From the NCBI GenBank assembly GCA_028280285.1, contig JANQMA010000026.1:822-64821 (forward strand): DNA of 64,000 nucleotides, in the 5' to 3' direction. The DNA is from Candidatus Omnitrophota bacterium. GTDB lineage: Bacteria > Omnitrophota > Gorgyraeia > Zapsychrales > Zapsychraceae. The position numbers and the translations under genes are program-made. Shown here one piece after another: positions 1 to 25,659 of the stretch (within the stretch, counting starts at the first letter, position 1; each line of letters begins with the position of its first letter). Below the pieces are notes generated by a model. It had not been told where the DNA came from. It did not search any database and was given only the letters and a program-made list of their open reading frames with translations.

Positions 1-3000
1 CATTCACAATTATCAGGTGTTTCTGACTGATAGCCATCTAAAGGTTATGCTGGAAAAGGACCTTTTTGCCGCACGCCAGGAAATTGGCGCAGATGTAGCG
101 CACATGGAGGCGGCAGGCGAACTGGTCAGCTCGGAAGAAGTAGCTGCTGTGATCCGTGAAGTGCTTATTCCTGAGATTGAGTACGAGATCAATCATGGTA
201 AAAATTTCGCGACACTCCGTCAGATTTTTAACTCTGTTATTTTGGCCTCTTGGTATAAAGACAATCTAAAGGAGTCTTTACTCGGGAAGGTGTATGTTGA
301 TCAAAATAAGCTTGAAGGAATCAATGACAATGATACGGCCACCAATGAAGCGATCTACAATCAGTATTTAGAGGCATTTAAAGCCGGTGTCTATGACTAT
401 ATTAAGGAAGGGTACGATCCGAGCGCCCAGCAAATGACAGCCAAAAAATACTTCTCAGGCGGAATTGCAGATTTAGTTAGTTTAAAGCGTAAAGATAATG
501 GAGTATTAGGCAAAGATCTTACGGGCAGTGATAGTGCGACTTTAGCTAATCAATTGCGTATTCGAATAGCGAATTTTGAAGTAAACCTTCTTGAGTGGGT
601 TAAAGAACTTACTTCTGGTATTGAGGAAAGGGCAAAACAAAAACATGAAGCAGCTGTCCGTTATCGGGATTTTATTGATACAAAAGAACGGGTTAACATA
701 GAAAAAGGTTTATCAAATTTACCTGAAAAATATGAAAGAGCTGCCAGAGCTTTAATGGAATTACCAAAAGCATATTTTTCACAGAGACAGATTAGAAGTT
801 TACAAACAAGAATTATAAAGTCACCTAGGCGTCAGTTAGAGAGTACAAGTGAAAGCATTGCACAGAGTTTAGAGCTCAAATTAACTAAGTCTATGTCTGC
901 TAATACTGAATATAATTATAACAACATAATACGCTTTGTGTTCAAAGATGTGGTTAGTGGAGCAAAAGCTTTGCATATTATTAGTACTGATATGAGTGGG
1001 AATTATCATGAACAACCTTGGATTAGGCCAAGTAAGGATATTAAATTAGTTGTTGATCTTTTTCGGAGATTTGCTGAGTTACAACCGGATCCCACTACGT
1101 TTAAAAAAGCAGATAATCTTTTGGCGAATTATTTTAACGATGGTAGCGCCACGGCTTGGGCTGCGATAGGTCTTGGTAATACAGAAATTACAGATCCGGA
1201 TTTCTATAGGGAGTTAATGGCAGGAAATCTTAGGCGTGAACAAATTGCCCAAAAGATTTTATATTTTTCAGAGATTGTAGATGAATATGAATCTGTTAAG
1301 CTTGATCGCACGACAGCCGTAACCGAAGATAAACTTATTGGATTTAATGGATTGAGGCCAGCAAGTGTGCTTGATGTGCTTCGTGAGCTAGTTGATATCG
1401 AAAAAATAATAAAAACCAGCGATGCCGCCTCTATTGCAGACATTCCCGATGATGTCATATCTCCTAAAAGGAAACAAGAGCACATAAATAAGCTTAAAAA
1501 AGCTGGTACGCTCGCCAGCAGTGTAGAGAAGCAAAAACTGAGAACTGACACGATTAAGGCTATGCTACAGGATTTTTATGAGTATACTCAAAGGATTTTA
1601 CGTGAGAACGACAAAAAAAGAAGCAGCAATAGTTTGACAACGCTAGGTTATTTTATGCCTGATATAAAGAGCATGGAGTTTCAGTATAATCAAAGTGAGT
1701 ATGAATTAGTAGAACAAGACAACAGTTTAGTTGTTTATTCTCTTGGTGACGAGCGCTCGATTTTACCAAATCAAGATATTACGAGTAATTTGCTTGTAGA
1801 GATTTCTAAGGTATTGAAGCAACGGGCAGACCGCATGACTCAAAAGACAGAAGAGGCTGTTAAAAAATCTTCAGACGAAGAGTGGGAAGAAATTTATAAC
1901 CTTGTTGGTGATGAAAGTGATGCATGGTTAGATTTAGATTCCGCTGAAGGCCAGATGAAAGATGAGGCCTCACTAGACACGCTGCTGATTGATTATAAAG
2001 GTCATGATCCTGAGTTGCGCGATGTGACCAATGTGATTAATGCGTTGCCTAAAAAATATCGTGAGGCAATAGAAGAAGCAGATCGTCCTTCATCTGTTGC
2101 TGATATAATTACGAAAGCTGAATCAGAGGGTTTGGTTGAATTTGCAATAATTACCAAGAGCGATCAGGTACGGCCAGCCATAAGGCGTTTATTTTATGAT
2201 GAAGAGCTGCTGCCAGTTACATCTGCGAGCTTGGCAGTGAATTATACTGGAAAAACTCAAATCACTAAGCGAGTTACTGAAGTGCTTAACGCCGAGGCAA
2301 AAGATGATTCAGATTTTGATCAACAATTAAGGGGAGGACTATTAAAGAGAGAAGTCATTATTGAAAGGGTTATGAATTCTAAACATGCGCCGGATGATTT
2401 GCGCGCAGGAGATAGATATGTTCTTATCGGCGCTGCGATCGATGAGTTGGTCGAACGGGGAAATATGAAAACCAGCGACGCCGCCGCGCTTGGGCAGGAA
2501 ACCGTGGACGAATTTGATGCGGCGGACTTGGATATCGAAAAAGAGGATGATTGGGATGATATCATAAAAGCTGTTCGTCAATTAAAGCCAGGGAAGACAG
2601 AAGAAGGTTTACATGAGGCTATTATGGCGTATATGAAGAGACACCAAAAAATGTTTAAGGTTGATCAGGGAGCATATGAGATGTATGTTCTTCCGCAAAT
2701 GAGTAGGATCTTTGCTGAATTTTATGAAATGGGGGGGATACCCCTGTACATGCTAAAAGGCCTTAAAGATCATCTTGATGAAATTTCAAAGGCACCGACA
2801 AGAGATGAACAGGTTTTTTTCCTAGCTACAGTAACTCTAAATATTTTGGGTCTACATGAATATGATGCGAAGAAGATTTTTTCTGATTCTTCTTTGCCGA
2901 TGCAGGACTCCGGTATTAGCAAAGAAGATAGAATTAATACAATTACCAAAAACTATGACGCACTGAAAGAAAAGGCCCAATTTTTAAGTGTAATTGAATC

Positions 3001-6000
3001 AAGACTTAAAGCTAAAAATAATCAAGGAGATGCGGATGCAGATAAGCTGCTACTTAGGCATCGTTTGTTGACCGATATAATACGGTCTAGTTTAGTTAGG
3101 TTCAGTGTATCTTTAGATCGTATGATTTCTGAGATGCGATTATCACTTGAAGTAGATGAAGAATCGGTTCAGGAAGTGGATCTGCATTATGTGGACTACA
3201 CTCTTCGGGCGATACATTTGACTTTAGACTTTTTAATAACAGATGTAGACAAAGCCGCGCTTGAGCAGACTGATGCGGCGATATTATTAAGTCCTGAGGA
3301 GGAAGAAAGAGCGCTATTATTAACAGCAGCTGAAGATCGAATTAATACGCTTTTGGATGAGCAGTACAAATCAGGAAGTGTAACAAAAGAAATTTATGAA
3401 AAATCAAGGAAAAGCGCCTTTAAAAATTTTAAAGAATGGACAGAAAGCGAAGAGCTGTACCGCTTAGCACCGGGGATTCGCATGGCCAATTTGCAGGCTG
3501 TCCGTGATGGACGTTTTAATGATATCGTGGAGGCTTATCGTCAAGAAATCGCCTTTGGAACAGCAGGTATTCGCGGGAAAGCGGCACTAACTCTGGATGA
3601 ACTTTTTAAAATGAAAGAGGATGGTCCAGCGGCAGCAATTCTTAAGGGAATTAACACAATTAATGATGTCGTTCTTCTACATAAAACAGCCGGTGTTATC
3701 AAATATGCACAGGAGACAGGGCGCACACGTATTGTGCTTGGGTATGATAGCCGCATCGGCGGATCAGAATTTATTGATATGATTGCGCGTTTATTCATTA
3801 AAGCGTCCAAGCCCGAACATGAATTTAAACTTTTTATTTTTGACGAATCGGCGCCTTTTCCAGAGCTGTCTTTTGGTATTACAACAAAAGAAGTTCAAGG
3901 GCATATCGGTATTTTTATATCGGCAAGCCATAACCCTGCGGATTATAACGGATACAAAATTACACTGGAAACAGGAGCCCAATTGAACCAAGAAAATAAA
4001 AATCTTGTATTGGATGCGGTAAATAGAACAACATTTGCAGATATTGTGTTAGCAGATTCACTTGCGGATGCTAAACCTGGACAAATTGTATGGTTAGGTG
4101 GGAAAGAAAGGCTAGAAGATAAGCAGTATTATGGATTTGATTTGATCGATATGCATACATTACATGTTGAACAGGTAAAAAAGTTGATTCTTGATAAAGA
4201 AGCGATCACGCGTGAAGGGCGTAATGTTAATATCGGATTTGCTGCATTTAATGGGGCCGGGCGCAAAGCAGTACCACGTTTGTTGGATGAAACAGATTTT
4301 GATAATGTAAAGGTTGTGTCAAAACTCCAAGAGTTAGACGGGCTTTTTCCTGCCTTTAAATATGGAGAACAACCCGATCCAGGTGACCCAATTGCAGGGG
4401 AAATTGCCGTCAATGAGTTCATTAAGGAGCATGGGCAAGAAGCGTTTGATGAACTAGATCTTCTGGTGGGAACTGATCCTGATTCTGATCGTATGGGCGC
4501 GGTACTGAAAGTCCCTGAAAGCCAACAAGCACAATTTGGAAAATATAGATTAATATCAGCCAATGATGCCTGGACACTCCTTACATGGTACAGACTTATG
4601 AAAAAGAAGGAGATGGGTTTATTAGAAAATCCCGAAAACCATCTTGTTGTAACAACACATGCAACGAGTGATGCGATTGCTGAAGTTGCTGAACAGGAAT
4701 TTGGTGTTGGTTCATATGGAAGAATGTTAGATATGAATAAAAAAGAAGATCGTGGAGATTATTTAAATGGTCAGCGCACATGGGTTGGCTTTACATATGT
4801 CTCAGAGGCTTTTGAGGAAATTTTAAAGATGGGGAAAGTTGCCGAAGGCGGTTATGAAGAATCTAATGGAATGAGTTTGCACGGACACACAAATGATAAA
4901 GATGGAACTTTGGCGGCCATTTTATTTGCGGAAATGGCGGCTTATGCGAAATCAGAAGGAACAACGCTATTTGAAATGCTCGATGAAATTTATTTAAAAA
5001 TAGGGCATTTTGGAACGGCTAACAAACCGTTACCAAGGGTTGGTTCGTTTGAAGGGGCAGCAGGCGTTTCAGAGAAAATTAATATATTAAAGAAAGCACA
5101 AGAGTGGGCGGCTGAAGCAAATAGTCGTGCCGGAACAGATAATCCTTTTATGATTGCCGGCCGTGAGGTTATCGGAGCCGTTGAGTTTAAATCGGGGCGC
5201 ATTGATCATAATCACTATGAAGGCGTACCTGATGAAGGAATTAGATTTTTCTTTAAAGATGAAAACATGAAAGAGGGGGATCATTTTATAAAGAGTAAAA
5301 ATTATGTAATGATTCGCCCTTCCGGTACATCTCAGACATTACGATTCTATACACAACTTCTTAAAAAAGTTGATCGTGAAAATATTGCTCAGCAAAAGCT
5401 GGAAAATTATATAGCGACAGAGCAATTAGCGCTTATGACGCAAAGGCAAATCTTGGGAGATGTTGGTTTGACTAAATATTTTGCAATGGTGGATGCACAA
5501 CTAGCGGAAGTAAGTCTTTCTAATGATAACGCAGCAATTGAAGAGGAAAAAGAAGATGCAGCAAGCTTGGCCGCTGAAGTTGCCTTGAAGCAGCTGGAAC
5601 GGGCCATTGGGGATGATTTTTCCTTTTTTATGAATTATACAGCAAAATTAGAGTATCAAGGTAATGTTAGAAATATTTATTATAACGATAATAGGCCTTT
5701 AGAATTAGAAATGTTAGAAAAAGTTATGCGTCATTATCAGAAATTGTTAATTGACCATGGGTTTTTCGATTTGGAGGTCAAGCGTCTGCGCATTCAAGGA
5801 TTACCGATTGACAATGAAGTCCTTAAGGTAACCCGTCAATCAGAATTTGAGTATGCTATAAATTTAGGCGATAGCAAGCCGGTTAGCATGAGTATTGATG
5901 ATATTCGTTCATTTATTAGACAAGCCCGGGCTAAGCTTCTTAAGAATGGAGATATAAGAAACGGTATTTTAACGCAACTGGCAAAACAATTAAGTAAAAA

Positions 6001-8059: not shown

Positions 8060-8192
8060 CAAGGCCACACACTATCCCCCAAACCGTTTCAATCTTGAAT
8101 TGGCTTAACAGCATGCTATACTTATAACTATAATATTAGAAATTAAGGCATTTAGGTGCTGTTTGTATACTTTTACCAGGGAAGGGGTAAAT

Positions 8193-11100
8193 ATGTCTAT
8201 TAGTTTTAAATCATCCAGTAAATCTCCATTGACTCAGATTACATCCCTATTTGTCGCGTTTATATTTTGTTTTACTTCCGTTATTGCTCCCGGCTCGGCC
8301 CGGGCACAATTTATCCCGACACCGGCTGTCATGCCGGCAGTCGGCAGTATGGTGCAGATTTCCAATGCCTTTGATCCGCTTATTATCAAGGGTCTTACCA
8401 TTCATCCGGAGAATCCTCTGGAGTTTTCATTTTTAGTCGATTTAGGCGATACCAATTATAGCGAAACAAAGATCAAAGATGAGTCGCAGCGGCTGATTAC
8501 CTATTTTATGGCCGGTTTAACGGTCCCTGAAAGCGAGCTGTGGGTCAACCTTTCCCCTTATGAGAATAACCGTATTATTCCCGACAGCCTTGGCCAGACA
8601 GCCATGGGGCGTGATCTTCTCGCGCAAGACTATCTGCTTAAGCAGTTAACCGCGTCTTTAATGTATCCGGAAGATGAACTGGGCGATAAATTCTGGACAC
8701 AGATTAAACAGCGTGTGGAAGCTTTATATGGTCCGGGCGTTGATATCCCGACCAATGTGTTTAACAAGGTCTGGATTATGCCGGAAAGTGCGGAAATCTA
8801 TATTCATAACACCAGTGTTTTTCTTTTGGGTAGCCGTCTTCAGGTTATGCTGGAAGAAGATTATGTGGCGGCGCGCAAGGCCATTGGCGCGGATGTTGCG
8901 CATATGGAGACTGCCGGAGAGTTATTGGGCCATCAAGAGGTAGCGGAGGTTGTCCGTGAAGTGATCCTGCCGGCTATTGAAGAAGAAGTCAACTTTGGCG
9001 AAAACTTTTCTACCCTGCGGCAAATCTTTAATTCGATTATCCTTGCCTCCTGGTACAAAGACAATCTGAAAGAAACGATTTTAGGCCAGATTTATGCCGA
9101 TCAAAACAAGCTTAAAGGGATTGATGAAAACGACAAGCAAACAAATCAGCAGATTTATCAAAAGTATTTAGAGGCCTTTGAAGAGGGTGTTTATAACTAT
9201 ATTAGAGAAGAGTACGATCCGGCTAAGCAGCAGATTATTCCACGCAAATACTTCTCCGGCGGATGGCTTCATGATCAGGCAGCGCTACTCACTCATGAAA
9301 ATACAGTAGTGGAAGGCCAGTACGGCCAACCCCTTGATGCAGCCGTGCTTCAGAATTTTGGCAAGGCTATGACTCCTGAAGTTGTGAGGAAAATGAAACG
9401 AGTTAGGGCTCAATTGGCTCAAGAAAGTGCGAAAACGCATACAGTTGAGTCAATTGCTTACCAACCGCTTTTGTCTAATATTCCAAAGACAATAATTAAT
9501 AATGTGGAGGCTAGCCAACTAACCGATTTATTACAAGAAGATCAAATTAATCTCATCGCCAGAAAAACGCTGCTTGAGCTTATTAATCAGAGGGGTGTTT
9601 TGGATTATGGGATTGATGTTAATGTGCAAGCGGGTGAAGCGATCGATTTTATTTTTAACACAGACATGGATGACCGGATTATGCGTGCCGTGCGCACAGA
9701 ATTGCAATCGGAAGAAGAGTTGAGCACGCAACGCATGCTTGATTTGTTAGATGCATTTAGTGTAGAAGTTACGATTGTTGAAGGTGGTGCTTCTCGTTCT
9801 GAGGAAATGAGTTTGCGTGATTATATTCAAGGTAATCTCCAACATGCCGTTTATTTGGCCCATGCTGTCGGTAATGCGGATGAAAGAGGTGATGAGTCGA
9901 CGCGTGTAAGAAAGCGAAGAGGAATAAGAGAACAATTAGAACGTAGCTTTCCCGGTGTTAGCTCGGTAACTCTTAGAACTATTGCGCGTGATTTGGTTAA
10001 ATTACAAAGGAACAGATTAAATGATGATCATATGTCATTAATCGTACAAGCTGTTTCTGATAAGGTCCAGGCTAAGGTTAGTTTTGATCAGGTATACACA
10101 ACAGATGAATTTTCTTTCCGTGTTAGAAAGCAAGGGCAACTGGAAATCGCCGCGGCACGGGGAAACATTTTTAGTGATGTATCGTGGGGTAGCTTAACAG
10201 TCAATCAGCTAGGCCTTATAGCCCAGGCGGTTGACAATGCTTCGATACAAGATCCCGTCGAACCCGGTACGATTCAACAGCAATCAATGGTGAAAGAATC
10301 CGCTGATTTTAACCGGATTACTTCATATGCGGGGCAATCTTTCCAAAGAGATAATTTGTCTCAATTGATGCGTGAAGCAAGCTTTGTATCAGAGAGCCGT
10401 GAAAATTTTGTTGAGTTAAGAGATCAATTCGAACGCATACGAACGGCGTCAGATCCGCAGGGTAGCATTGTTGGTATTAAGGTTATTGAAAATACTCAGC
10501 CTCTTCAATATGGAGGGGGTTTTGAGCTTGACGGCATAGTATATGTTGAACAAAGCTTATTAGATCATATCGAAAAGAATAATAACCCTTTTAATATGCG
10601 TGAACGTATGTTGCGCAATTTCTTTCGTAAAGGAACTGCCCTTGAGAGAAAAATTGCGGAATATGATGAATTGGTTCAAAAATACGGAGAATCCAGGTTA
10701 AACTTATTTCCGGAAGGCCGTGTCCTACAAAGCTATCGCGATACGCTTTATGGGCAATTACCGGCAGATAAAAATAATACAGAAAGGCTTAATATTATAC
10801 TTGAAAAACACGGATTCAATAATGTTAAAATTACTGAGCCTGATGAAAAAGCGATTGAATTAACTAATATATTAAAGGAACACATTGATATTGCTTTATA
10901 CACAATGGCGATCAATTCGGCGAATAAATTTATTGATTTAAATAAAAATATCCGTATGCATACGGATGATCCTTTATTGGATTCAAATGAGGAGTATGTA
11001 GCTAATTTTTTTGCTTTCGCCGCTTATCCAGCGACTGTTGCGCACTTTATTACTGTTGCCTTAAAAGGAGGCGCGCTGTCCTATTCGGATGATAATATTT

Positions 11101-13742
11101 TTTATGTGTCCAAAGATCAGCTAAAACCAGAGGCCTATCGTGAATATGATAGTCGTTATGATATTACGGAAGCCGTAGTGGAAAATACTATGCAAGGTCT
11201 GGCACGGTTAATGCCCAAAACGACTGAAAGGCAGGGCAAAAATGGAGAAAACATGTTGCTTCCTCTGGCTGAAAAGAATATAGGAGCTAAGCAAATCACT
11301 TTTAATTATATGATTGGGGAGGATCATTGGCTTGCCTTTGCGCGCTATACTGAAGACCATGTGAAAAAAGCAAAGCGAACAATTAATGATCTTGAGAAAG
11401 AAAAAGAGCAATTAAACAGTAAGATAAAAAATGCTGAGGTGCCAGAAGAAAAAGATCAAACGGAGTTTCGAGTAGAAATTAATAGGCGCCTAACAGAGAT
11501 TGATCAAAAAATAGAGCACAACCAGAATATTAAGGCGGGAGGTATTATACCCACCCGTGTAAAGTTGGATGAAGCGGATTTTATGGTTATGGAGGGGTAT
11601 CTGGATTTATTGAAATTATTGCTTGAGAAGGATAAAGAAAGCTTAACAGATCAGCAGGTTGAGGCCATTGAAGTACTCCTTGACCAAAGAGCTCTTTTCT
11701 TAGATGAATTGTCTGATGCGGCTGAGGAAGATAGGAAGTTAGATAACGATGACCCTGAAGATACGCCACATTTGTTTGAAGTATTTAAAAAATATGGTAT
11801 TTCAGAAGTTCCTAAGCTGGACACAGCCGGAAAGATTCATTTATCGGCAAAGGAATTTAAAAAACGTCATCCGGATCAGCCTATTGAAATGAGGGTTGTA
11901 ATTACCAAGCGCGGCAGTATTATGGAAGATAAAATTCGCGATGAGCTTAAAGTTCCACATACTATTAATCCAGGTTTGGACTATCCGGTTTCTTCAACCG
12001 CACTGAGAACTGCGCTTGTGAATATTCCACGTGATAGGTTAGACCGAGGTGAATTGCCTTTTGTATTTATCGATACCGTGGATGAATTATTAGAATCTCA
12101 GAGGAGAGAACATCTTTATTCATTGTTATTGACAAAAAGTGAACCAACCCTAGCTAATGCACTTGAAGTTGTATTTCCTAAAAATCAAGCAAGAAAAGAA
12201 CAGCGGCATACTCAATTAAGAGCAGATCTTCAACAGGCGCTTCAAGAGGGATATTATACCAACAATGTAAATGTTGATGGGCATGTTGAGCCCAAAAACA
12301 ACCGTTCTGTATTGGACATTCAAGTTAATGACGATAAATTTCGTGTTGTCTATAATGTTGTCAATCGTGCAAAGACAAAGGGAAACATAGTTCGATTTGC
12401 TGTTAGCGATCAGAATAATAAAGAAATTAGTCAGACGGAGTGGTCAGAAAAATCTGTTTTAAGTAGTGCCGTAGAAGAATATTTGAAAAGTTATACTGGC
12501 GCTGTTGTTACGACATACTTGCCACTTGAGGAGTTAAGTAAACGTGAGCTTGTCCATCAAAGAGGTAAGGATCTCAATTTTCTTTCCAGCAATGATGGTC
12601 AAATTATGCAATTCATGCAAGAGTTTGCGCAGGAATTCACACATGATACTACTACTGAATCCCGTGAACAAGAATTATCAGAAGACTTTGAGCTTGTTGT
12701 CTTTGACCGCCCACGATTTTTACGTCAAGATGGGCGGATTGAGATTCAATTTACTCATCAAATATTTAATGATCCAGTTAATAAGGCATGGACAGCAGAT
12801 GGATATTTTCAATATATTGATGAAAAAATTGTTTCTGAGCTAAATTGGTTTTTAAGTGATAGGCGACTAAAAGCCGAAGCGCTAAACAATACGTTAACGA
12901 TCAATAAGAATAGAGACGGCATGCCTTACGTTACAATGGAAATTGAAATATCTAAGGTCTCGGCTACTTTGGGGCAAAAAGACAGTGAAAACGAGTCCGA
13001 CGCCCCGACTATGACCAGTGGACAAAGATTATTTGTTGTTAACGAATCGCAGAATAAGGTAAACCAATTTAGTGTAGAGGATATGGATCCTGATTTTGGA
13101 AGGATAAAAAGCACGGCAACGGTACGGTTTCTTCCGTCGAACGGTAACGGTGTTGTCAAGGGTATGGTGAGGTATATTCCTAATCAACGTGATAATTCAA
13201 ATCAAAATGAATTAAATAAATTAAAATTTAAATTAAAAGAAAAATATGTGCAGAATAATGAACAAGAAAAGCGCGATATCGAAGAGGAAATTAAAACACT
13301 TGAGACTAAGCTTAAAGAAAGCAGGGAAAATGTTTTAACAAAACTTGAAAAGGAGTTAAATTCTTTAAACGATGACCTCAATCCCGGAGAAACACAGGAG
13401 TATGATGTTAAACCTTCTCGACTCGTTACCAATGATGGCTTTGAACTAACCATTACGTTGCAGGATAACGCAGCGGTTACAGCCGATCCGGTGGGTGGTA
13501 TTGATCTTAATCCCGAGATGCTTGATCTTCAGATCAAACGCGACGCAAGCGGCATGCCGCTTCCGGTGAGTCAGCAGCCGATTATCAATATGGATATCGA
13601 AGGGTTTGTGCCGGTTATTATTAATATCACGCCTGTTACCAATGTTCCGCTTATGCTGGGTTTAATTAATGAAGGAACGATTGAGGTAGAAGAAGAGCCG
13701 CTTGAGGCCGTTCAGGCCGTCCGGTTTGATGAGTTGAGTTAA
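8193..13742 (+). CDS. Giant secreted protein, paralog 2 (about 1849 aa). It has a signal peptide, the conserved N-terminal domain, a unique central region with coiled coil, and the conserved C-terminal GGIDLNP module.
   Basis: An ATG at 8193 is preceded by GGAAGGGG, and the track's TTG at 8163 is less likely. The signal peptide is LTQITSLFVAFIFCFTSVIAPGSARA. The N-terminal domain is homologous to paralogs 1 and 3. The C-terminal module is GGIDLNPEMLDLQIKRDASGMPLP...PVTNVPLMLGLI, followed by an acidic tail. Confidence 0.85.
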   Translation: MSISFKSSSKSPLTQITSLFVAFIFCFTSVIAPGSARAQFIPTPAVMPAVGSMVQISNAFDPLIIKGLTIHPENPLEFSFLVDLGDTNYSETKIKDESQRLITYFMAGLTVPESELWVNLSPYENNRIIPDSLGQTAMGRDLLAQDYLLKQLTASLMYPEDELGDKFWTQIKQRVEALYGPGVDIPTNVFNKVWIMPESAEIYIHNTSVFLLGSRLQVMLEEDYVAARKAIGADVAHMETAGELLGHQEVAEVVREVILPAIEEEVNFGENFSTLRQIFNSIILASWYKDNLKETILGQIYADQNKLKGIDENDKQTNQQIYQKYLEAFEEGVYNYIREEYDPAKQQIIPRKYFSGGWLHDQAALLTHENTVVEGQYGQPLDAAVLQNFGKAMTPEVVRKMKRVRAQLAQESAKTHTVESIAYQPLLSNIPKTIINNVEASQLTDLLQEDQINLIARKTLLELINQRGVLDYGIDVNVQAGEAIDFIFNTDMDDRIMRAVRTELQSEEELSTQRMLDLLDAFSVEVTIVEGGASRSEEMSLRDYIQGNLQHAVYLAHAVGNADERGDESTRVRKRRGIREQLERSFPGVSSVTLRTIARDLVKLQRNRLNDDHMSLIVQAVSDKVQAKVSFDQVYTTDEFSFRVRKQGQLEIAAARGNIFSDVSWGSLTVNQLGLIAQAVDNASIQDPVEPGTIQQQSMVKESADFNRITSYAGQSFQRDNLSQLMREASFVSESRENFVELRDQFERIRTASDPQGSIVGIKVIENTQPLQYGGGFELDGIVYVEQSLLDHIEKNNNPFNMRERMLRNFFRKGTALERKIAEYDELVQKYGESRLNLFPEGRVLQSYRDTLYGQLPADKNNTERLNIILEKHGFNNVKITEPDEKAIELTNILKEHIDIALYTMAINSANKFIDLNKNIRMHTDDPLLDSNEEYVANFFAFAAYPATVAHFITVALKGGALSYSDDNIFYVSKDQLKPEAYREYDSRYDITEAVVENTMQGLARLMPKTTERQGKNGENMLLPLAEKNIGAKQITFNYMIGEDHWLAFARYTEDHVKKAKRTINDLEKEKEQLNSKIKNAEVPEEKDQTEFRVEINRRLTEIDQKIEHNQNIKAGGIIPTRVKLDEADFMVMEGYLDLLKLLLEKDKESLTDQQVEAIEVLLDQRALFLDELSDAAEEDRKLDNDDPEDTPHLFEVFKKYGISEVPKLDTAGKIHLSAKEFKKRHPDQPIEMRVVITKRGSIMEDKIRDELKVPHTINPGLDYPVSSTALRTALVNIPRDRLDRGELPFVFIDTVDELLESQRREHLYSLLLTKSEPTLANALEVVFPKNQARKEQRHTQLRADLQQALQEGYYTNNVNVDGHVEPKNNRSVLDIQVNDDKFRVVYNVVNRAKTKGNIVRFAVSDQNNKEISQTEWSEKSVLSSAVEEYLKSYTGAVVTTYLPLEELSKRELVHQRGKDLNFLSSNDGQIMQFMQEFAQEFTHDTTTESREQELSEDFELVVFDRPRFLRQDGRIEIQFTHQIFNDPVNKAWTADGYFQYIDEKIVSELNWFLSDRRLKAEALNNTLTINKNRDGMPYVTMEIEISKVSATLGQKDSENESDAPTMTSGQRLFVVNESQNKVNQFSVEDMDPDFGRIKSTATVRFLPSNGNGVVKGMVRYIPNQRDNSNQNELNKLKFKLKEKYVQNNEQEKRDIEEEIKTLETKLKESRENVLTKLEKELNSLNDDLNPGETQEYDVKPSRLVTNDGFELTITLQDNAAVTADPVGGIDLNPEMLDLQIKRDASGMPLPVSQQPIINMDIEGFVPVIINITPVTNVPLMLGLINEGTIEVEEEPLEAVQAVRFDELS

Positions 13743-14000
13743 ATTTATTAGATCCTAGATCCTTGATTCTTGATGCTAGATATCCAGAATCTAGAATCCA
13801 GGATCAAGCATCTAGAATGTGAATTTTTTGTAACACGTCTTCGCATTTCCCAAAATCGTATAAGTCATTTATCATCAGTAGTTTAGATTTATTCTATCCT
13901 GCGCCCTCCTATTGAATTCCCTCTAATTTACGTTATACTTTTACTACAGTATTTCTGTGACACAGTATTGTTCAATTCTACCAAATAGAAGGAGTTACCA

Positions 14001-17000
14001 TTGAAGTCGCTTAAATCTTTCATCCTATCTAAAGTCATTTCATCGCTTACTATATTAATATTTTTATTAGGTAATATTATTATTCCAACCAATACATACG
14101 CAGAGCAAATTGCCACGCCTGTCTTTATGCCGCCTGTAGGTAGTATGATAGGCGCAAGTGAAATGTATACGCCAACGATTATCAACGGATTAATCATCAA
14201 TCCCGATGATCCACTGCAATTTTCATTCCTTGTCGATGCCGGTGATGCGAATCTTCAAGGCGAGGCGTTTAAAGAAGAGTCGCAACGCTTAGTGAATTAT
14301 TTTATGGCGGGGTTAGCTGTTCCGGAAGATGAGATATGGGTTAACTTGTCGCCCTATGAGAAAAATCGTATTGTTCCTGATGCCTTAGGGCAAACAGCGA
14401 TGGGGCGTGACTTGCTTGCCCAAGATTATTTGCTTAAACAATTTACAGCTTCTCTGATGTATCCGGAAGATGAAATGGGTAAAGCCTTCTGGAAGCGAAT
14501 TAAAGAGAAGGTAAGCACCAAACATGGCATTGATGATATCCCGACTAATATGTTTAGTAAAGTTTGGATCGTCCCAGAAAGTGCAAAGATTTATATTCAC
14601 AATATGACAGTATTTTTAACGGATAGTCATTTAAAGGTTATGCTTGAAAAAGACTATTTAGCGACGCGTGAGGCGGTAGGTGATGATGTATCGCATATGG
14701 AAACAGAGCAGGAGCTTTTATCTTCAGAAAATGTTGCCTCTATCATACGAGACATCATTATTCCTGAAATTGAGCATGAGGTAAATCATGGCAAAAACTT
14801 TGCACCTCTTCGCCAAATCTTTAACTCGGTTATTCTTGCTTCCTGGTACAAGGCGAACTTAAAAGAGTCTTTGCTCGGACAAATCTATATTGACCAAAAC
14901 AAAATCGAAGGCATTAATGACAATGCGCCGGCAACGAATCAAGCGATTTACGACCAGTATCTAGAGGCCTTTAAAGCAGGCGTTTATAATTATGTGAAAG
15001 AAGAGTATGACCCTGCAGCCCAGCAAATGGTGGCGCAAAAATATTTTTCCGGCGGGATCGCAAACGATTTTGCAGCAATGGTTGATAATTCCAAATTACA
15101 AACAGTTGGAAAAATAATGGACGGGTTGGATCCGGCCAACATATCTGATTTGCAGAATAGCAATAGTGGGAGTATTCAAAGAGTAGATGTTGAAGTAAAG
15201 CCTGAAGAAATAAATCTTACTACAGTGGATGCTGCCATTTTAGAAGAAATTTCTTACATAAAAGCACTACTGGAACTTTCCTTTGAAGAAGAAGGTAATA
15301 ATGGTGATGAGGAATTTATTGAGGAAATCATGAGCAGTACATCGAGAATAATTGATTACTTCAAAGGTGCTGAAGAAAAGGATTTTAAATCTGACTATGA
15401 AGAAACTGTCCAACACTTAGTTTGGTGGCTTGGGTTCAAATTGCGTGAGGCTAGCTCTCCTGAGGATGGGTTAAATAAGACAATTCAAGTTAATTTCTTA
15501 CATAAAGGCAATGAATATGAGTACGTAGAAAAAAATGATATTAATAGGTCGATGGTAAGGGTTAAAAGTGACAGTTGGAAGAAGGAAGTTAGTCCAATAA
15601 ATACTCCAAGTCTTGCTGAGAACATCAGTTTACTTGAAGTCATGTTGGCTAGCAGTAGGCGAAACCTTGATACACATGTAAGGCGTCCAGTCAAAAACGA
15701 TGTCATTGAGCGTGTCAGGAAATGGCCTTTATTTGTTTTTGAGAATAACGCCGAAAGAAGATGGGTTCTTGATGCGCTTACAAGGAGACGTAATAAAGAT
15801 ATTAATTTAGGTAGCCTCCAGCTTGACGGCTTTGATGCTATTTTAGACAGAATTATTTCACGCCAACTAAAGGGTCAAAAGCGTAATGTAACCGTTGACG
15901 AAAAGCAAATACTTTTAAATCCTATTAATAACAGAAAAACTCTTTACGGAGGGGCGGATATAAGCAGCATACCTATTTTGGTATTACTTAGTATTGTTGA
16001 AGAGATTTACGAGCTGAAGATGTCTAATGAGGTTATTGAGACTACCAGGAAAAAGATGGAGTCAGTTAAGGATAATACTTGGAATATAGTTCGAAAATTT
16101 ATTGATGAGCAAATGAGCGAATATGAGGATCATGAATTGGTTTGGTCGATATATACGAAACCTGATTCTGATTTTAATACAGAAACAGTGTTGGTTATTG
16201 TTCCAAAGAAAGAAAATATAGATCGAGAAAAATTTAATCGGCAGATTGGTATTTTAAGTGAAGCGATTATTGAAAATGTAAATCTTCCCGAGGGGATAAA
16301 TATATTTAAACAAGGGGATAAAAACGCTTCAGATAAAGATTTATTAATCTTCAGAGAAAAAGAAGATGTTAAATTTACTGATGCTGAATCAGGAGAAATA
16401 TTGGAGTTTTATGAAGGAGTAAAGTTGCGTATTAAGCATGCTCCCGAATTTTTCCAACTTGACGGGAAAGGTAATCAATCAGTATTATCACAAAATGACC
16501 GCGAAAAACGGGCTGTGCGCAATATTACACGTGATTTTTATTTGGATTTACGTGTGGCAGATGAAACAAAAGACGATTTAAAACGGATCGATGTCCATTA
16601 TTATTATGGGCTTTCCTCTGGTCGTCGAGGGGTTGTGCCTATTTATGTAAAACAAGATGAGGATATTAACAATATTGCTGATGCGTTGTTGTTTGGTGTG
16701 CAGAGCCAGGTTAATGAAACTAATTTTTATAGACTTATATTTAATGATGTGCGCAGTACTTTAGTTAGACTTTTTGATGGAGAAAATCAAAAAAGACTTA
16801 ACCAGTTTGATAAAATTATTGCCGAAGCGGTAAAAAAAGGAAAATTTGCAAGCGAAGCAAAAGAAAAAATCTTTAAATGGGGCAGAGAAAATCAGCAGTA
16901 TACAGATAAAGAAGGATTAGAAGAGTTTCTACGTGCGCAATACGCGACTTTTAATATTGATTCAGAAATTATACTTAAGCATCTTCTTGACTCAGACTAC

Positions 17001-17330
17001 TTTTCCCAAATAAAAGATATAGTCCGCGGGTTTGACTTGAGCGCAGATAATGCTCATCTGACACCCGGTGGTATTGACCTTAATACCAAGATGCTTGATC
17101 TTAAGCTTGAGTATGATGGCAGCAATATACTGCCTACCGTGGATCCTGCGGTCTTAAAAGACATCAACATTAAAGGGCTTACCCCAATTATTACGAATGT
17201 GGTGCCGATCAGCAATTTGCCGCTTATGCTCGGGTTTGGTGATGGGCCGGGTTCGGATGACTCCGGGCCCTATACGATGGGGTCTGTTGGCGATCTTTCC
17301 TATCTTAAGTCGCAGGAGTTATATAAGTAA
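14001..17330 (+). CDS. Giant secreted protein, paralog 3 (1109 aa), with a TTG start
   Basis: AGGAG lies 7 nt upstream of the TTG at 14001. The signal peptide is MKSLKSFILSKVISSLTILIFLLGNIIIPTNTYA. The N-terminal domain is about 80% identical to the visible part of paralog 1. The C-terminal module is GGIDLNTKMLDLKLEYDGSNILP...PISNLPLMLGF, followed by an acidic or Gly tail. Confidence 0.85.
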   Translation: MKSLKSFILSKVISSLTILIFLLGNIIIPTNTYAEQIATPVFMPPVGSMIGASEMYTPTIINGLIINPDDPLQFSFLVDAGDANLQGEAFKEESQRLVNYFMAGLAVPEDEIWVNLSPYEKNRIVPDALGQTAMGRDLLAQDYLLKQFTASLMYPEDEMGKAFWKRIKEKVSTKHGIDDIPTNMFSKVWIVPESAKIYIHNMTVFLTDSHLKVMLEKDYLATREAVGDDVSHMETEQELLSSENVASIIRDIIIPEIEHEVNHGKNFAPLRQIFNSVILASWYKANLKESLLGQIYIDQNKIEGINDNAPATNQAIYDQYLEAFKAGVYNYVKEEYDPAAQQMVAQKYFSGGIANDFAAMVDNSKLQTVGKIMDGLDPANISDLQNSNSGSIQRVDVEVKPEEINLTTVDAAILEEISYIKALLELSFEEEGNNGDEEFIEEIMSSTSRIIDYFKGAEEKDFKSDYEETVQHLVWWLGFKLREASSPEDGLNKTIQVNFLHKGNEYEYVEKNDINRSMVRVKSDSWKKEVSPINTPSLAENISLLEVMLASSRRNLDTHVRRPVKNDVIERVRKWPLFVFENNAERRWVLDALTRRRNKDINLGSLQLDGFDAILDRIISRQLKGQKRNVTVDEKQILLNPINNRKTLYGGADISSIPILVLLSIVEEIYELKMSNEVIETTRKKMESVKDNTWNIVRKFIDEQMSEYEDHELVWSIYTKPDSDFNTETVLVIVPKKENIDREKFNRQIGILSEAIIENVNLPEGINIFKQGDKNASDKDLLIFREKEDVKFTDAESGEILEFYEGVKLRIKHAPEFFQLDGKGNQSVLSQNDREKRAVRNITRDFYLDLRVADETKDDLKRIDVHYYYGLSSGRRGVVPIYVKQDEDINNIADALLFGVQSQVNETNFYRLIFNDVRSTLVRLFDGENQKRLNQFDKIIAEAVKKGKFASEAKEKIFKWGRENQQYTDKEGLEEFLRAQYATFNIDSEIILKHLLDSDYFSQIKDIVRGFDLSADNAHLTPGGIDLNTKMLDLKLEYDGSNILPTVDPAVLKDINIKGLTPIITNVVPISNLPLMLGFGDGPGSDDSGPYTMGSVGDLSYLKSQELYK

Positions 17331-17445: not shown

Positions 17446-18513
17446 ATGATTAATATAGCGATCATCGGCTGCGGATATTGGGGGCCGAATCTTTTAAGAA
17501 ACTTCCAAGATATTGGTAATGTGCAGGTTACGCTTGTCGTGGATTTGGATAATGACCGTTTGGCGTATGCCGCGGAAAAATATCCCAAGATAAGGGTTAG
17601 CAAAGATTACCATGATGCGTTTGCCGGTGACATCGATGCTATTGTCATTGCCACACAGCCGACCAATCATTATCAACTCACCAAAGAGGCACTGGAACAT
17701 AATAAACATGTGCTTGTCGAAAAACCATTGGCCATGTCTGTCAGTGAAGCAGAAGAATTGGTGCGGATGGCCGATGCCCGTGATTGTATATTAATGGTGG
17801 GTCATACCTTTGAATACAATCCTGCTGTACGACTATTAAAACGTGAGATCGATTGTGGTACGATCGGCAAACCTTATTACTTTTATACCCAGCGTCTTAA
17901 CTTCGGTATTGTGCGTCAGGATGTCAGCTCCCTGTGGAGTTTGGCCCCGCATGATATTTCTATTCTCAATTATTTGATTGGAGGTATGCCAGAGCGTGTG
18001 GCGGCCCATGGGTTTGATTTTATCCAACCGCAACTGGCAGATGTGGTGTTTATGGTCTTGCATTATCCGGGGGGTGTCAAGGCACATGTGCAGGTCAGCT
18101 GGCTTGATCCGCGCAAGGTGCGTTCTTTAACGGTCGTCGGCAGTGAAAAGATGATTGTCTATGATGATATGGCCGATAGCAAAATACAGATTTATGATAA
18201 AGGGATCAAGCGTCAGAATATTGATGAGTCATTGGGACCTTATGATGATTTTGGTAAATACCAACTGATTAAATCAGCGGGCGATGTTACTTTTCCTAAA
18301 ATTGATTTTACCGAACCGCTGAGAAGTGAATGTGAAGAGTTTATTGAATGTATTACTGAATCAAGAAGACCCCAGGCGGATGGGCTCAATGGTCTTCAGG
18401 TTGTTTCTGTCCTTGAGGCTGCTGACCGGTCGATTAAAACAGGTGGAGAAGAAGTAGTAATAGAAGAGATAAAAGAAATAAGTGGCACGAAAGCTAGAAC
18501 CTATTACCTATAG
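17446..18513 (+). CDS. Gfo/Idh/MocA-family NAD-dependent oxidoreductase (WbpB/GnnA-like UDP-sugar 3-dehydrogenase), copy 1
   Basis: The N-terminal Rossmann motif is IAIIGCGYWGPN. The EKP motif and a dimerisation domain are present. It is followed directly by a DegT aminotransferase. Confidence 0.8.
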   Translation: MINIAIIGCGYWGPNLLRNFQDIGNVQVTLVVDLDNDRLAYAAEKYPKIRVSKDYHDAFAGDIDAIVIATQPTNHYQLTKEALEHNKHVLVEKPLAMSVSEAEELVRMADARDCILMVGHTFEYNPAVRLLKREIDCGTIGKPYYFYTQRLNFGIVRQDVSSLWSLAPHDISILNYLIGGMPERVAAHGFDFIQPQLADVVFMVLHYPGGVKAHVQVSWLDPRKVRSLTVVGSEKMIVYDDMADSKIQIYDKGIKRQNIDESLGPYDDFGKYQLIKSAGDVTFPKIDFTEPLRSECEEFIECITESRRPQADGLNGLQVVSVLEAADRSIKTGGEEVVIEEIKEISGTKARTYYL

Positions 18514-18524
18514 ATTCGAACAAG

Positions 18525-21853: not shown

Positions 21854-21945
21854 GTGGTCTGTTGTCTGTGGTCAGTGGTCATAAACTAAAACTGATCACA
21901 GAGCACCGAACACAGAACACAAATGTTTACATTTATAGCTAATTC

Positions 21946-25646: not shown

Positions 25647-25659
25647 CGACAATTGTTTT

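What the first reader, a model, noticed from the sequence alone, without database searches (positions are those of the whole stretch)
1..17330. Tandem trio of giant paralogous secreted proteins with conserved N- and C-terminal modules and unrelated central regions
Three consecutive same-strand ORFs (at least 2680, ~1849 and 1109 aa) share a ~330-aa N-terminal domain directly after a signal peptide. Blocks such as PTPAVMPAVGSM, NLSPYENNRIIPD..GQTAMGRDLLAQDYLLKQ and HGKNF..LRQIFNS.ILASWYK are conserved. They also share a ~60-aa C-terminal module (GGIDLNPxxLDLQIKRDGxGxPLP....I.GF.PIIxNIxPV.NLPLMLG) followed by an acidic or Gly tail. Everything between the two ends is unrelated in sequence and length, from about 600 to more than 2000 aa. 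I could not match either conserved domain to a family I know. Conserved termini with a hypervariable middle is the layout of flagellins, pilins and some S-layer or adhesin proteins. It suggests that the termini assemble or dock together while the middle is displayed as cargo. Synonymous sites between the paralogs are saturated, so these are old maintained paralogs and not a recent duplication.
Basis: seen in the sequence. Interest (0 to 1): 0.85.

Follow-up and report, generated by a model that had tools for sequence, protein, structure and literature searches.

The report
Secreted cargo-carrier proteins of Omnitrophota
The three large genes belong to a huge, undescribed protein family of the uncultured phylum Omnitrophota in which an export signal, a conserved head domain and a short conserved tail that appear to fold together enclose almost any cargo, including complete sugar-metabolism enzymes, which may bear on how these tiny host-dependent bacteria use their very long proteins.

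The parts
1..8059 (+). ORF1, 5'-truncated by the window edge. The complete gene is 2888 aa and starts 608 nt before window position 1 (L080:145-8811).
1..463 (+). ORF1 N-domain, C-terminal 154 residues only, ending at YFSGG. The signal peptide MILTF...GAAAQ|L and the rest of the domain lie upstream of the window.
464..7777 (+). ORF1 cargo (2438 aa, no cysteine). D-x-A-A-[LIV] linker motifs at nt 2477, 3248, 3272, 5525, 6722, 6761 and 7754.
3554..5400 (+). Embedded alpha-D-phosphohexomutase (PGM/PMM) domain with all four catalytic loops: SASHNP 3920-3937, DPDSDR 4475-4492, GYEES 4850-4864, RPSGT 5315-5329. It is bracketed by linker motifs at 3272 and 5525.
7778..8059 (+). ORF1 C-module (GGIDLNPDLLDLQIKRDG...LPIIININPVANLPLLLG) plus a 40-aa acidic tail and the stop codon.
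8193..13742 (+). ORF2, 1849 aa from ATG 8193. A GGAAGGGG ribosome-binding site lies upstream, and a TTAACA-18-TATAAT promoter-like site at 8105-8134. The same protein is called on a public contig.
8193..8306 (+). ORF2 signal peptide (MSISFKSSSK...VIAPGSARA|Q).
8307..9263 (+). ORF2 N-domain (319 aa). AlphaFold model: pLDDT 81, pTM 0.79, mixed alpha/beta, no known fold.
9264..13493 (+). ORF2 cargo (1410 aa, no cysteine, no Pfam or PDB match). It is distantly similar (24-29%) to the cargo of four other family members. Linker motifs at 9273, 9336 and 13464.
13494..13742 (+). ORF2 C-module plus tail and stop codon.
14001..17330 (+). ORF3, 1109 aa, TTG start preceded by AGGAG.
14001..14102 (+). ORF3 signal peptide (..IIIPTNTYA|E).
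14103..15056 (+). ORF3 N-domain.
15057..17066 (+). ORF3 cargo (670 aa, no cysteine, no detectable homologue). Linker motifs at 15066 and 15228.
17067..17330 (+). ORF3 C-module plus a Gly/Asp-rich tail and stop codon.

Best explanation
The three genes are members of an Omnitrophota-wide family of exported modular carrier proteins.

Shown:
- Each protein starts with a canonical Sec signal peptide that has a conserved A|Q signal-peptidase site.
- A ~320-aa N-domain follows at the start of the protein.
- A ~60-aa C-module lies at the extreme C-terminus.
- Any cargo can sit between them, from 34 to more than 4,000 aa. It is often several modules, and some modules are intact enzymes.
- Cargo is almost free of cysteine.
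- Module boundaries carry a short D-x-A-(M/A)-hydrophobic motif.
- N-domain and C-module residues co-vary.

Inferred:
- The chain is threaded unfolded through SecYEG and the signal peptide is removed.
- The N-domain folds first. It is completed only when the C-module (the GGIDLN segment plus the hydrophobic beta-strand PVIINITPV) emerges and packs onto it.
- A full-length protein therefore becomes a closed loop held by a two-piece 'handle'.
- This handle, the only invariant part, is what a still-unknown partner recognises. That partner could be an outer-membrane export step, a surface anchor or a delivery device.
- Cargo modules then act outside the cytoplasm, on the cell surface or on or in a host or prey cell. 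They may be released by cleavage at the linker motif.

In this window the cargo is a phosphohexomutase flanked by unknown modules (ORF1) and two unknown cargos (ORF2, ORF3).
For: - Family and layout: 8,413 clusters at 50% identity match the N-domain, always at residues ~1-400 and in one copy, with protein lengths of 420-5312 aa. 77 ORFs in 79 genomic loci plus the window carry both the N-domain and a C-module, which ends 0-84 aa from the C-terminus. 101 of 123 further representatives also carry the C-module, ending at most 69 aa from the C-terminus. About 40% of loci hold same-strand tandem arrays.
- Export: in 153 members with called starts the n-region charge has median +3, the h-region hydropathy has median 2.26, an A|Q site occurs in 118, and S/A/V/G dominate position -3 (100 of the 133 sites scored).
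- Cysteine exclusion: 119 Cys in 249,898 cargo residues (0.048%) against 1.11% in 432 neighbouring ORFs. 176 of 237 cargos have none, and ORF1-3 have none after the signal peptide. W, M, Y and K frequencies are unchanged. In this window the SurA-like and MlaD envelope proteins are also Cys-free, while the cytoplasm-type sugar-nucleotide and transferase enzymes have 2-13 Cys.
- Two-piece handle: mean-field DCA on 248 members ranks N139 (GRD-L-LAQDY) x C38 (GGID-L-N) first of 84,255 pairs (score 3.13). N111 x C39 ranks 10th and shows a K/D charge swap. N73 x C71 shows an L/F size swap. Shuffling the N-C pairing gives a maximum of 1.44. DCA also recovers the two AlphaFold hairpins (pairs 195-209 and 68-76). 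AlphaFold of a 500-aa minimal member gives pTM 0.79 and C-module pLDDT 77-95.
- Generic carrier: only 23 of 2926 cargo pairs are similar. Cargo Pfam content spans PGM, PGK, enolase, TIM, GAPDH, PPDK, LpxC, radical SAM, kinases, PP2C, receiver domains, SNF2 helicase, NUDIX and HEAT.
- Linker motif: D.AM[LIVMA] occurs 218 times against 8.1+-2.6 after shuffling. It is absent from neighbouring genes, sits at domain borders (for example between PGK and enolase in L011), and its third codon positions are free.
Against: - Much of the cargo is cytoplasm-type and needs ATP, NAD(P), CoA or Fe-S clusters (PGK, GAPDH, radical SAM, LpxC, receiver domains). Such enzymes have no obvious role outside a cytoplasm unless delivered into another cell.
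- No secretion, anchoring or protease gene is consistently adjacent. The best neighbour family occurs in 11 of 79 loci and is a generic response regulator.
- About 13% of members have a strong TM-like segment just after the N-domain. That would leave their cargo in the cytoplasm.
- The docking evidence is indirect. I could not inspect model coordinates. One shuffle control removes phylogeny as well as contacts, and only 2 inter-module pairs clearly exceed it.
- Only 114 of 237 members carry the strict motif, and cleavage at it is pure inference.
- Signal peptides were judged by my own rules, not by SignalP.
Confidence: 0.5

Rival explanations
1. Effector-delivery platform (a sharper version of the best explanation). 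The handle takes the protein out of the predator or parasite and into or onto a host cell. There the cargo modules are cut apart at the D-x-A-M motif and act in the host cytoplasm, as MARTX toxins do with their central effector arrays.
For: - Cargo is of cytoplasmic type but Cys-free and sits behind a signal peptide.
- The punctuation motif lies exactly at domain borders.
- There are many paralogs per genome with unrelated cargo.
- Published work proposes a predatory or parasitic lifestyle for Omnitrophota (PMC10066038) and reports predator RNA inside dead prey (PMC13153191 abstract).
Against: - No protease, translocon or injection genes are linked.
- There are no RTX repeats and no cysteine protease domain.
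- Glycolytic enzymes are odd effectors.
- Half of the members lack the strict motif.
- Nothing shows entry into another cell.
Confidence: 0.2
2. Membrane- or envelope-tethered enzyme scaffolds for the cell's own metabolism. The N-terminal hydrophobic segment acts as an anchor, or the N-domain sits outside and a following helix returns the chain. The cargo then works in the cytoplasm, or in a periplasm that supports metabolism, held at the membrane.
For: - Cargo consists of housekeeping-type enzymes with intact motifs: ORF1 PGM, and L011 PGK E 1e-103 and enolase E 6e-86.
- About 10 of 77 members have a TM-like segment right after the N-domain, and a few have a second one before the C-module.
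- A 2026 preprint reads many long Omnitrophota proteins as membrane-anchored with cytoplasmic enzyme content (10.64898/2026.06.07.730766).
Against: - The A|Q cleavage site is conserved and the n-region is positively charged, which gives an N-in orientation and so an exported N-domain.
- Most members, including all three here, have no stop-transfer helix.
- The 23-fold cysteine depletion covers the enzyme domains themselves, while cytoplasmic neighbours have normal Cys content.
- N-C co-variation implies that both ends lie on the same side of the membrane.
Confidence: 0.15
3. Self-assembling surface coat. The N-domain plus C-module polymerise into a lattice or filament, as flagellin D0/D1 or S-layer anchoring domains do, and the middle is displayed on the outside.
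For: - The ends are conserved and probably co-fold, and the middle is variable.
- The proteins are Cys-free and acidic, like S-layer proteins and flagellins.
- An Omnitrophota species was named for an extracellular coat (PMC10066038).
- Surface-glycan biosynthesis genes lie directly downstream in this window.
Against: - There are thousands of family members and many per genome, with cargo up to more than 4,000 aa of unrelated enzymes, rather than one or a few abundant subunits.
- There is no fold similarity to flagellin, pilins or any S-layer protein.
- Glycan genes are not a conserved neighbour.
- No oligomer prediction could be run.
Confidence: 0.12
4. Not a functional unit: chance similarity, a recent duplication or gene conversion, or an assembly or gene-calling artefact.
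For: Some MAG loci show an N-domain ORF without a C-module followed by a C-module ORF without an N-domain (L012, L014, L032, L050, L062, L078). This shows that gene calls in this family are error-prone.
Against: E-values reach 1e-142. Synonymous sites are saturated while dN is 0.21-0.27. The same architecture occurs in hundreds of independent genomes and 8,413 clusters. An independent assembly carries the same three genes.
Confidence: 0.01

Closest known systems
Type IX secretion cargo (Sec signal peptide + functional domains + conserved C-terminal domain, CTD)
   Same: Both have an N-terminal Sec signal, arbitrary cargo and a short conserved beta-rich module at the extreme C-terminus. Both have many paralogs per genome. 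In both, the conserved module is plausibly what a second-step machine recognises.
   Different: There is no match to the T9SS CTD models. The C-module is ~60 aa with three predicted strands, not a 7-strand Ig-like sandwich. An obligatory 320-aa N-domain exists and co-varies with the C-module. The cargo is of cytoplasmic type. The phylum is different.
MARTX toxins (multifunctional autoprocessing RTX toxins)
   Same: Both are very long secreted proteins. Conserved N- and C-terminal regions flank a central, freely exchangeable array of enzymatic modules separated by short linker sites. This comparison rests on my own knowledge of the family.
   Different: MARTX toxins use type I secretion without an N-terminal signal peptide. 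They carry glycine-rich RTX-type repeats and an internal cysteine protease domain that cuts the linkers. None of these is detectable here, and cleavage at D-x-A-M is not shown.
Flagellin (conserved D0/D1 termini, hypervariable or even enzymatic central domain)
   Same: The N- and C-terminal segments fold together and the middle is an insertion of free length and content. Both are Cys-free.
   Different: Flagellin has no Sec signal. Its termini form a coiled coil that polymerises. Here the fold is mixed alpha/beta with no similarity to flagellin, and family multiplicity is far higher.
Two-partner secretion exoproteins (TpsA/CdiA) and autotransporter passengers
   Same: Both have a signal peptide followed directly by a conserved ~250-300-aa N-terminal domain, very long Cys-poor chains and variable functional ends. 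Cysteine paucity is linked to crossing the outer membrane unfolded (my own knowledge of the family).
   Different: The TPS domain is a beta-helix with a Pfam model, which does not match. The predicted fold here has nine helices and two hairpins. TpsA has no conserved C-terminal module, and no TpsB-like gene is adjacent.
Giant Omnitrophota proteins ('Archaeovorins' and others; West-Roberts 2023 preprint; 2026 complete-genome preprint)
   Same: They come from the same phylum, are long and carry signal peptides. Both embed sugar-metabolism and other cytoplasm-type enzyme domains, including PGM/PMM. Their function is equally unexplained.
   Different: Those papers treat proteins of about 10,000 to 147,000 aa defined by length, with dockerin, TSP3, C39 and SecA-like domains and many TM helices. 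Keyword searches of both texts found no description of this N-domain/C-module family, its linker motif or its cysteine exclusion. Whether the giants contain these modules was not tested.

Membership tests
T9SS cargo (C-terminal sorting domain) | C-terminal domain matches the Por_Secre_tail / T9SS CTD profile models | tested here: not met
   No Pfam or NCBIfam hit at E<=0.1 on any of the three proteins outside the PGM region.
T9SS cargo (C-terminal sorting domain) | CTD is a ~70-100-aa seven-strand Ig-like beta-sandwich | tested here: not met
   The AlphaFold model of the minimal member shows three strands plus a short helix in ~57 aa. There is no fold hit to solved CTDs.
T9SS cargo (C-terminal sorting domain) | Genome encodes the T9SS core (PorK/L/M/N, SprA, PorU/V) | not testable with these tools
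   Only a 64-kb window and 20-kb loci were available. None of these genes was seen in them.
Exosortase, rhombosortase, sortase and archaeosortase substrates (PEP-CTERM, GlyGly-CTERM, LPXTG, PGF-CTERM) | Signature motif, then a TM helix, then a basic cluster at the C-terminus, matched by NCBIfam models | tested here: not met
   There is no NCBIfam hit. The tail after the hydrophobic strand is short and not basic. The hydrophobic stretch contains three prolines, is predicted as a beta-strand, and co-varies with the N-domain.
Two-partner secretion TpsA | N-terminal TPS (haemagglutination activity) domain with a right-handed beta-helix fold | tested here: not met
Flagellin | Flagellin N and C helical domains (Pfam) and absence of a Sec signal | tested here: not met
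   There is no Pfam hit. A canonical signal peptide is present.
MARTX / RTX toxins | GGxGxDxUx nonapeptide or MARTX A/B/C repeats, an internal cysteine protease domain, no N-terminal signal peptide | tested here: not met
   There are no Pfam hits for RTX or CPD. There are no internal repeats. A signal peptide is present.
alpha-D-phosphohexomutase superfamily (embedded domain of ORF1 only) | Pfam domains I, II and III above their gathering scores | tested here: met
   PF02878 71.1 bits, PF02879 34.3 bits and PF02880 35.1 bits, all above cut-off. PDB phosphosugar mutases are matched at E 1e-6.
alpha-D-phosphohexomutase superfamily (embedded domain of ORF1 only) | Four catalytic loops: phosphoserine (T/S)ASHNP, metal DxDxDR, sugar GEES, phosphate RxSGT | tested here: met
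   SASHNP, DPDSDR, GYEES and RPSGT occur in the right order at window aa 1307, 1492, 1617 and 1772.
Sec-dependent secretory proteins | Positively charged n-region, hydrophobic h-region, small residues at -3 and -1 of the cleavage site | tested here: met
   Statistics on 153 members. ORF1 GAAA|Q, ORF2 ARA|Q, ORF3 TYA|E. These are rule-based calls; no SignalP run was possible.
Omnitrophota 'Archaeovorin' / dockerin-type giant proteins | Length above ~10,000 aa with dockerin, TSP3, C39 peptidase or SecA-like domains and multiple TM helices | tested here: not met
   Lengths are 1109-2888 aa. None of these Pfam domains is present. There is no convincing internal TM helix.

The most novel reading that the evidence does not exclude
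Omnitrophota export a large part of their enzyme repertoire, including whole glycolytic enzymes, as cysteine-free modular polyproteins. Each is locked into a loop by a two-piece handle of unprecedented fold. They deliver these polyproteins onto or into host or prey cells, where the modules are separated at the D-x-A-M linker sites and work in the foreign cytoplasm. This would be a new protein-delivery system. It would also give a mechanistic basis for the host-dependent, 'hyperactive' lifestyle of these nanobacteria, and possibly for their giant proteins.
Probability: 0.2. Interest if true: 0.95.

Novelty: categorically new. Interest (0 to 1): 0.82.

Why it matters
Omnitrophota are widespread, uncultured, ultra-small bacteria thought to live on other cells. 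Their very long proteins with embedded metabolic enzymes have been noted in the literature but not explained.

This finding isolates a simple, testable unit behind part of that puzzle. It consists of a signal peptide, a head domain and a tail module that appear to co-fold, a boundary motif, and near-total cysteine exclusion. The unit recurs in more than 8,000 sequence clusters around almost any cargo.

- If the handle is a sorting or delivery device, it defines a new secretion-substrate class, points to an unknown machine, and gives a direct way to list the exported proteome of a whole phylum from sequence alone.
- If the cargo instead serves the cell's own metabolism, it would be an unusual case of core metabolism placed behind a signal peptide.
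- In either case the N-domain is a confidently modelled fold with no solved relative, and the two-piece closure could be useful as a protein-engineering scaffold.

Tried and rejected
- Known-family assignment failed. Pfam, NCBIfam, PADLOC and PHROGs gave nothing for the N-domain or C-module. A PDB profile search gave nothing.
- The AlphaFold-database library was not available.
- I found no conserved neighbour or operon partner. Clustering 1,480 flanking ORFs gave only generic families: response regulator in 11 of 79 loci, then ABC ATPase, histidine kinase and trp genes.
- The family is not phage- or mobile-element-borne: only 3 hits in 2.9 million viral contigs.
- I disfavour the C-module as a transmembrane tail-anchor. 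It has three prolines, is predicted as a beta-strand, has no basic tail, and co-varies with the N-domain core.
- A DNA-level origin for the D-x-A-M motif (RBS or start-codon remnant, or a recombination site) is rejected. Synonymous positions vary freely, there is no upstream nucleotide conservation, and the window's own proteins use Ala instead of Met.
- There are no internal repeats in the three proteins.
- A multi-replicate shuffle control for the co-variation analysis timed out. Only one replicate was completed.
- Literature searches on Omnitrophota giant proteins, effectors, polyproteins and secretion found no description of this family.
- The three homologous-protein searches listed no hit longer than about 1.75 times the query. 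Full-length architecture therefore had to come from genomic loci and the representative search.


Full report
**1. What is in the window**

Three ORFs lie on the + strand at 1(cut)..8059, 8163..13742 and 14001..17330.

BLASTP quantifies the similarity:
- N-terminal regions: ORF2 vs ORF3 is 55% identical over 416 aa (E 1e-142). The truncated ORF1 is 60% identical to ORF2 and 68% to ORF3 over ~185 aa.
- C-terminal regions: 35-56% identity over 76-134 aa (E 4e-15 to 4e-28).
- Nothing else aligns, and there are no internal repeats.

A public contig carrying exactly the ORF2 protein (L080; window nt 1 = L080 nt 753) supplies the missing start of ORF1. ORF1 is 2888 aa and begins MILTFQRSSK...GAAAQ|LIPTPAPMP, followed by the full N-domain.

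ORF2 most likely starts at ATG 8193. A GGAAGGGG site lies before it and a TTAACA-18-TATAAT site lies at 8105-8134. ORF3 starts at TTG 14001 after AGGAG. Each gene can therefore be expressed on its own.

In all three proteins the N-domain ends at YFSGG and the C-module begins at GGIDL.

Mature N-domains are 66-72% identical, with dN 0.21-0.27. dS is 2.9 for ORF1/ORF2 and saturated for the other two pairs.

**2. The modules are not known**

Pfam and NCBIfam detect only phosphoglucomutase/phosphomannomutase domains I-III in the centre of ORF1. PADLOC finds nothing, and PHROGs hits only the same PGM region.

A 119-sequence profile of the N-domain finds no PDB sequence.

**3. It is a very large, phylum-restricted family with a fixed layout**

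- The N-domain finds 894 word-sharing relatives, almost all labelled Candidatus Omnitrophica/Omnitrophota and all 'hypothetical'.
- The C-module finds 284 relatives.
- An exhaustive HMMER pass over 1.84 billion representatives finds 8,413 clusters at E<=1e-3 (6,838 at E<=1e-30). Among the 150 best hits listed, the domain always starts within the first ~60 residues, almost always as a single stretch, in proteins of 420-5312 aa.
- A scan of one genome per species finds at least 548 loci, and the 80 best fetched are nearly all labelled Omnitrophota. A few are labelled Planctomycetales, or just 'bacterium'. Several loci come from the same genome.
- In the 79 fetched loci plus the window, 77 ORFs carry the N-domain at the start and the C-module 0-84 aa from the end. 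Their lengths run from 724 to more than 3,700 aa.
- About 40% of loci hold two to four family genes in same-strand tandem, as in this window.
- Of 123 further representatives, 101 end with the C-module. The rest look truncated.
- Only three hits occur in 2.9 million viral contigs.

**4. The middle is cargo, not a hypervariable domain**

Cargo length runs from 34 to 3,242 aa in the loci set, and only 23 of 2926 cargo pairs show any similarity. Most cargo has no Pfam match.

The recognisable part is diverse and largely of cytoplasmic type:
- PGK (3 of 26 sampled long members) and PGM (3 of 26).
- Enolase, TIM, GAPDH and PPDK.
- UDP-glucose pyrophosphorylase, ROK kinase and LpxC.
- Enoyl-CoA hydratase, SDR and an AMP-binding enzyme.
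- Radical SAM with a B12-binding domain, and glutamate dehydrogenase.
- Ser/Thr kinase, PP2C and response-regulator receiver domains.
- HAD, Macro and NUDIX domains, SNF2 helicase and methyltransferases.
- M48 and trypsin-like peptidases, and HEAT/TPR repeats.

In L011, PGK (E 1e-103) and enolase (E 6e-86) sit side by side in one 2819-aa member.

In the window:
- ORF1 carries a divergent phosphohexomutase that looks catalytically complete. SASHNP, DPDSDR, GYEES and RPSGT occur in order.
- ORF2's cargo is 24-29% similar to the cargo of four other members and is otherwise unknown.
- ORF3's cargo has no relative in anything fetched.

Two preprints on Omnitrophota giant proteins had already noted embedded PGM/PMM and glycolytic domains and were puzzled by their predicted extracellular position. 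By keyword search, neither describes this N-domain/C-module family.

**5. Evidence on location**

Among 153 members with called starts:
- The n-region has a median net charge of +3.
- The h-region has a median hydropathy of 2.26.
- 118 have an A|Q site.
- S, A, V or G dominate position -3.

This is a canonical cleavable Sec signal peptide with N-in orientation, so at least the N-domain is exported. Only ~13% of members have a strong hydrophobic helix after the N-domain, and the three proteins here have none.

The cargo is almost free of cysteine. It holds 119 Cys in 249,898 residues (0.048%), against 1.11% in 432 neighbouring ORFs of at least 250 aa. 176 of 237 cargos have no Cys, and so do 55 of 95 cargos of at least 1,000 aa. 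Trp, Met, Tyr and Lys frequencies are unchanged, and Asp and Glu are somewhat raised.

ORF1 has no Cys in 2888 aa. ORF2 has one Cys, inside its signal peptide, and ORF3 has none. The PGK-enolase stretch of L011 has none.

Within this window the envelope proteins are also Cys-free (SurA-like, 509 aa; MlaD, 223 aa). The cytoplasm-type sugar-nucleotide and transferase enzymes in the window have 2-13 Cys each.

From general knowledge, cysteine exclusion is typical of proteins that leave the cytoplasm. It is especially typical of those that must stay unfolded to cross a second barrier, such as autotransporter passengers, flagellins and S-layer proteins. This is the strongest argument that the whole chain is extracytoplasmic, enzymes included.

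**6. The two ends probably fold together**

I aligned 248 full-length members to the two module profiles (351 + 64 well-occupied columns, 227 effective sequences) and ran mean-field direct-coupling analysis.

- The top pair of all 84,255 is inter-module. It links the first Leu/Met of GRD-L-LAQDY in the N-domain to the Leu/Phe of GGID-L-N in the C-module (score 3.13; M/F co-occur 47 times against ~22 expected).
- Rank 10 links the adjacent C-module residue (N/D) to the D/E/K of VPE-D-ELW, with a K-to-D charge swap.
- A Leu/Phe size swap links NP-L-xFDF in the first hairpin to G-F-xPVI in the C-module strand.
- Intra-domain pairs 195-209 and 68-76 match the two AlphaFold hairpins, so the method does see contacts.

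Shuffling which C-module goes with which N-domain gives a maximum inter-module score of 1.44 and one inter-module pair in the top 40, against five observed.

Caveats:
- Only one shuffle was completed.
- The shuffle also destroys shared phylogeny.
- I could not read model coordinates.

It also argues that the hydrophobic PVIINITPV..LPLLLG stretch is a buried strand and not a membrane anchor.

**7. A boundary motif**

The cargo and linkers contain a short motif, D-x-A-M-[LIVMT]-[STAV].
- D.AM occurs 313 times against 30.2+-6.0 in shuffled cargo.
- D.AM[LIVMA] occurs 218 times against 8.1+-2.6.
- It is not enriched in neighbouring genes (21 against 23.4) and is nearly absent from the N-domain.
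- When it lies near a module edge, it falls 5-50 aa after YFSGG and 5-25 aa before GGIDL, and it also sits between cargo domains.

In L011 the motif falls at 408 | 1052 | 2099 | 2575 | 2720. Position 2099 lies between the end of PGK (2089) and the start of enolase (2114). Position 2575 lies after the end of enolase (2564). The C-module starts at 2734.

Codon third positions are free and there is no upstream nucleotide signal, so this is a peptide-level signal.

The window's proteins use D-x-A-A-[LIV], or D-x-A-A-M in ORF3. Sites at nt 3272 and 5525 bracket the ORF1 phosphohexomutase.

Only 114 of 237 members have the strict motif. I read it as a module-junction signal, most simply a protease site. 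That reading is inference.

**8. Context**

There is no conserved partner gene. The most frequent neighbour families are generic.

In this window the trio is followed by sugar-nucleotide and glycosyltransferase genes at 17.4-27 kb. Ordinary chromosomal genes follow, including an Mla system and a SurA-like chaperone, which indicate a diderm envelope.

**9. Interpretation**

- Best supported (about 0.5): Sec-exported modular carriers whose N-domain and C-module co-fold into a single handle once the whole chain has emerged. The handle is the invariant element recognised by an unknown partner, and the cargo acts outside the cytoplasm.
- The sharper effector-delivery version (MARTX-like, cleavage at the motif, action in a host or prey cytoplasm) would resolve the paradox of ATP- and NAD-dependent enzymes behind a signal peptide. 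It has no direct support (about 0.2).
- Tethered scaffolds for the cell's own metabolism (about 0.15) fit the enzyme content. They conflict with the cleavage site, the missing stop-transfer helices, the cysteine exclusion and the same-side requirement of docking.
- A polymeric coat (about 0.12) fits the conserved-ends layout and the Cys-free acidic composition. It does not fit the multiplicity or the enzyme cargo.

**10. Novelty and score**

All membership tests against known sorting or assembly families failed. The N-domain fold has no solved relative, and I found no description in the searchable literature.

The concept of a signal peptide plus cargo plus a conserved sorting module is familiar. 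The combination seen here has no described counterpart that I could find: an obligatory head and tail that co-vary, cytoplasm-type enzyme cargo, a junction motif and near-total cysteine exclusion across thousands of members.

I rate it categorically new as a family and architecture, with the mechanism still open. Interest is 0.82.

Noticed in passing
window 2477, 3248, 3272, 5525, 6722, 6761, 7754 (ORF1); 9273, 9336, 13464 (ORF2); 15066, 15228 (ORF3); also L011 and L004: A family-specific linker motif, D-x-A-(M/A)-hydrophobic, is enriched 10-27 fold over shuffled cargo. It is absent from neighbouring genes and sits at domain borders. It is a peptide-level signal, since codon third positions vary freely.
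   Followed up: yes
window 13749-13818: A degenerate 7-nt tandem repeat (TAGATCC / CTAGAAT, ~10 copies) lies in the ORF2-ORF3 intergenic region just after the ORF2 stop codon. Its function is unknown.
   Followed up: partly
window 17446-26703: Directly downstream lies a cluster for modified UDP-sugar synthesis and transfer: two GFO/IDH/MocA oxidoreductases, two DegT aminotransferases, a hexapeptide acyltransferase, a UDP-GlcNAc 2-epimerase, GT2 and GT1. The set resembles di-N-acetylated aminosugar pathways. It is not a conserved neighbour of the family.
   Followed up: partly
window 30455-33048 and 58035-59564 (- strand): MlaE/MlaF/MlaD genes and a SurA-like chaperone indicate a diderm envelope. 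Both MlaD (223 aa) and the SurA-like protein (509 aa) contain no cysteine, unlike the cytoplasmic enzymes of the window.
   Followed up: partly
L003, L008, L009, L026, L033, L045, L063 (family ORFs, aa ~400-585): About 13% of family members have a strongly hydrophobic, TM-like segment immediately after the N-domain, and a few have a second one before the C-module. This suggests a sub-class with a different topology.
   Followed up: no
L012, L014, L032, L050, L062, L078: In these loci an N-domain ORF without a C-module is followed by a C-module ORF without an N-domain, sometimes overlapping. These are probably frameshifts or assembly errors in MAGs, but real split genes are not excluded.
   Followed up: no
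L011:4181-12637: One 2819-aa member carries phosphoglycerate kinase and enolase side by side (E 1e-103 and 6e-86) in the order common in glycolytic operons. It looks as if an operon segment had been fused in frame.
   Followed up: partly
hits P0029, P0043, P0140; loci L002, L005, L015 and others: Some family members are deposited under Heimdallarchaeota, Pacearchaeota, Bathyarchaeia or 'uncultured Planctomycetales'. These are probably binning or labelling errors, since nearly all others are Omnitrophota.
   Followed up: no
window 3554-5400 (ORF1 PGM region): The embedded phosphohexomutase matches a phage protein family of unknown function (phrog_20109, E 3e-30) better than it matches any solved PGM (E 1e-6).
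   Followed up: no
window 8000-8056, 13700-13739, 17290-17327: The three C-terminal tails share a small extra motif, [DE]LS(YL), seen as EELSYLRE, FDELS and GDLSYLKS. A similar 'LS.L' appears in the family tail consensus.
   Followed up: no
window 49113-50312: This is a GH5 cellulase-family gene whose N-terminus has only weak hydrophobicity and which contains 4 cysteines. It may therefore not be exported in the usual way.
   Followed up: no
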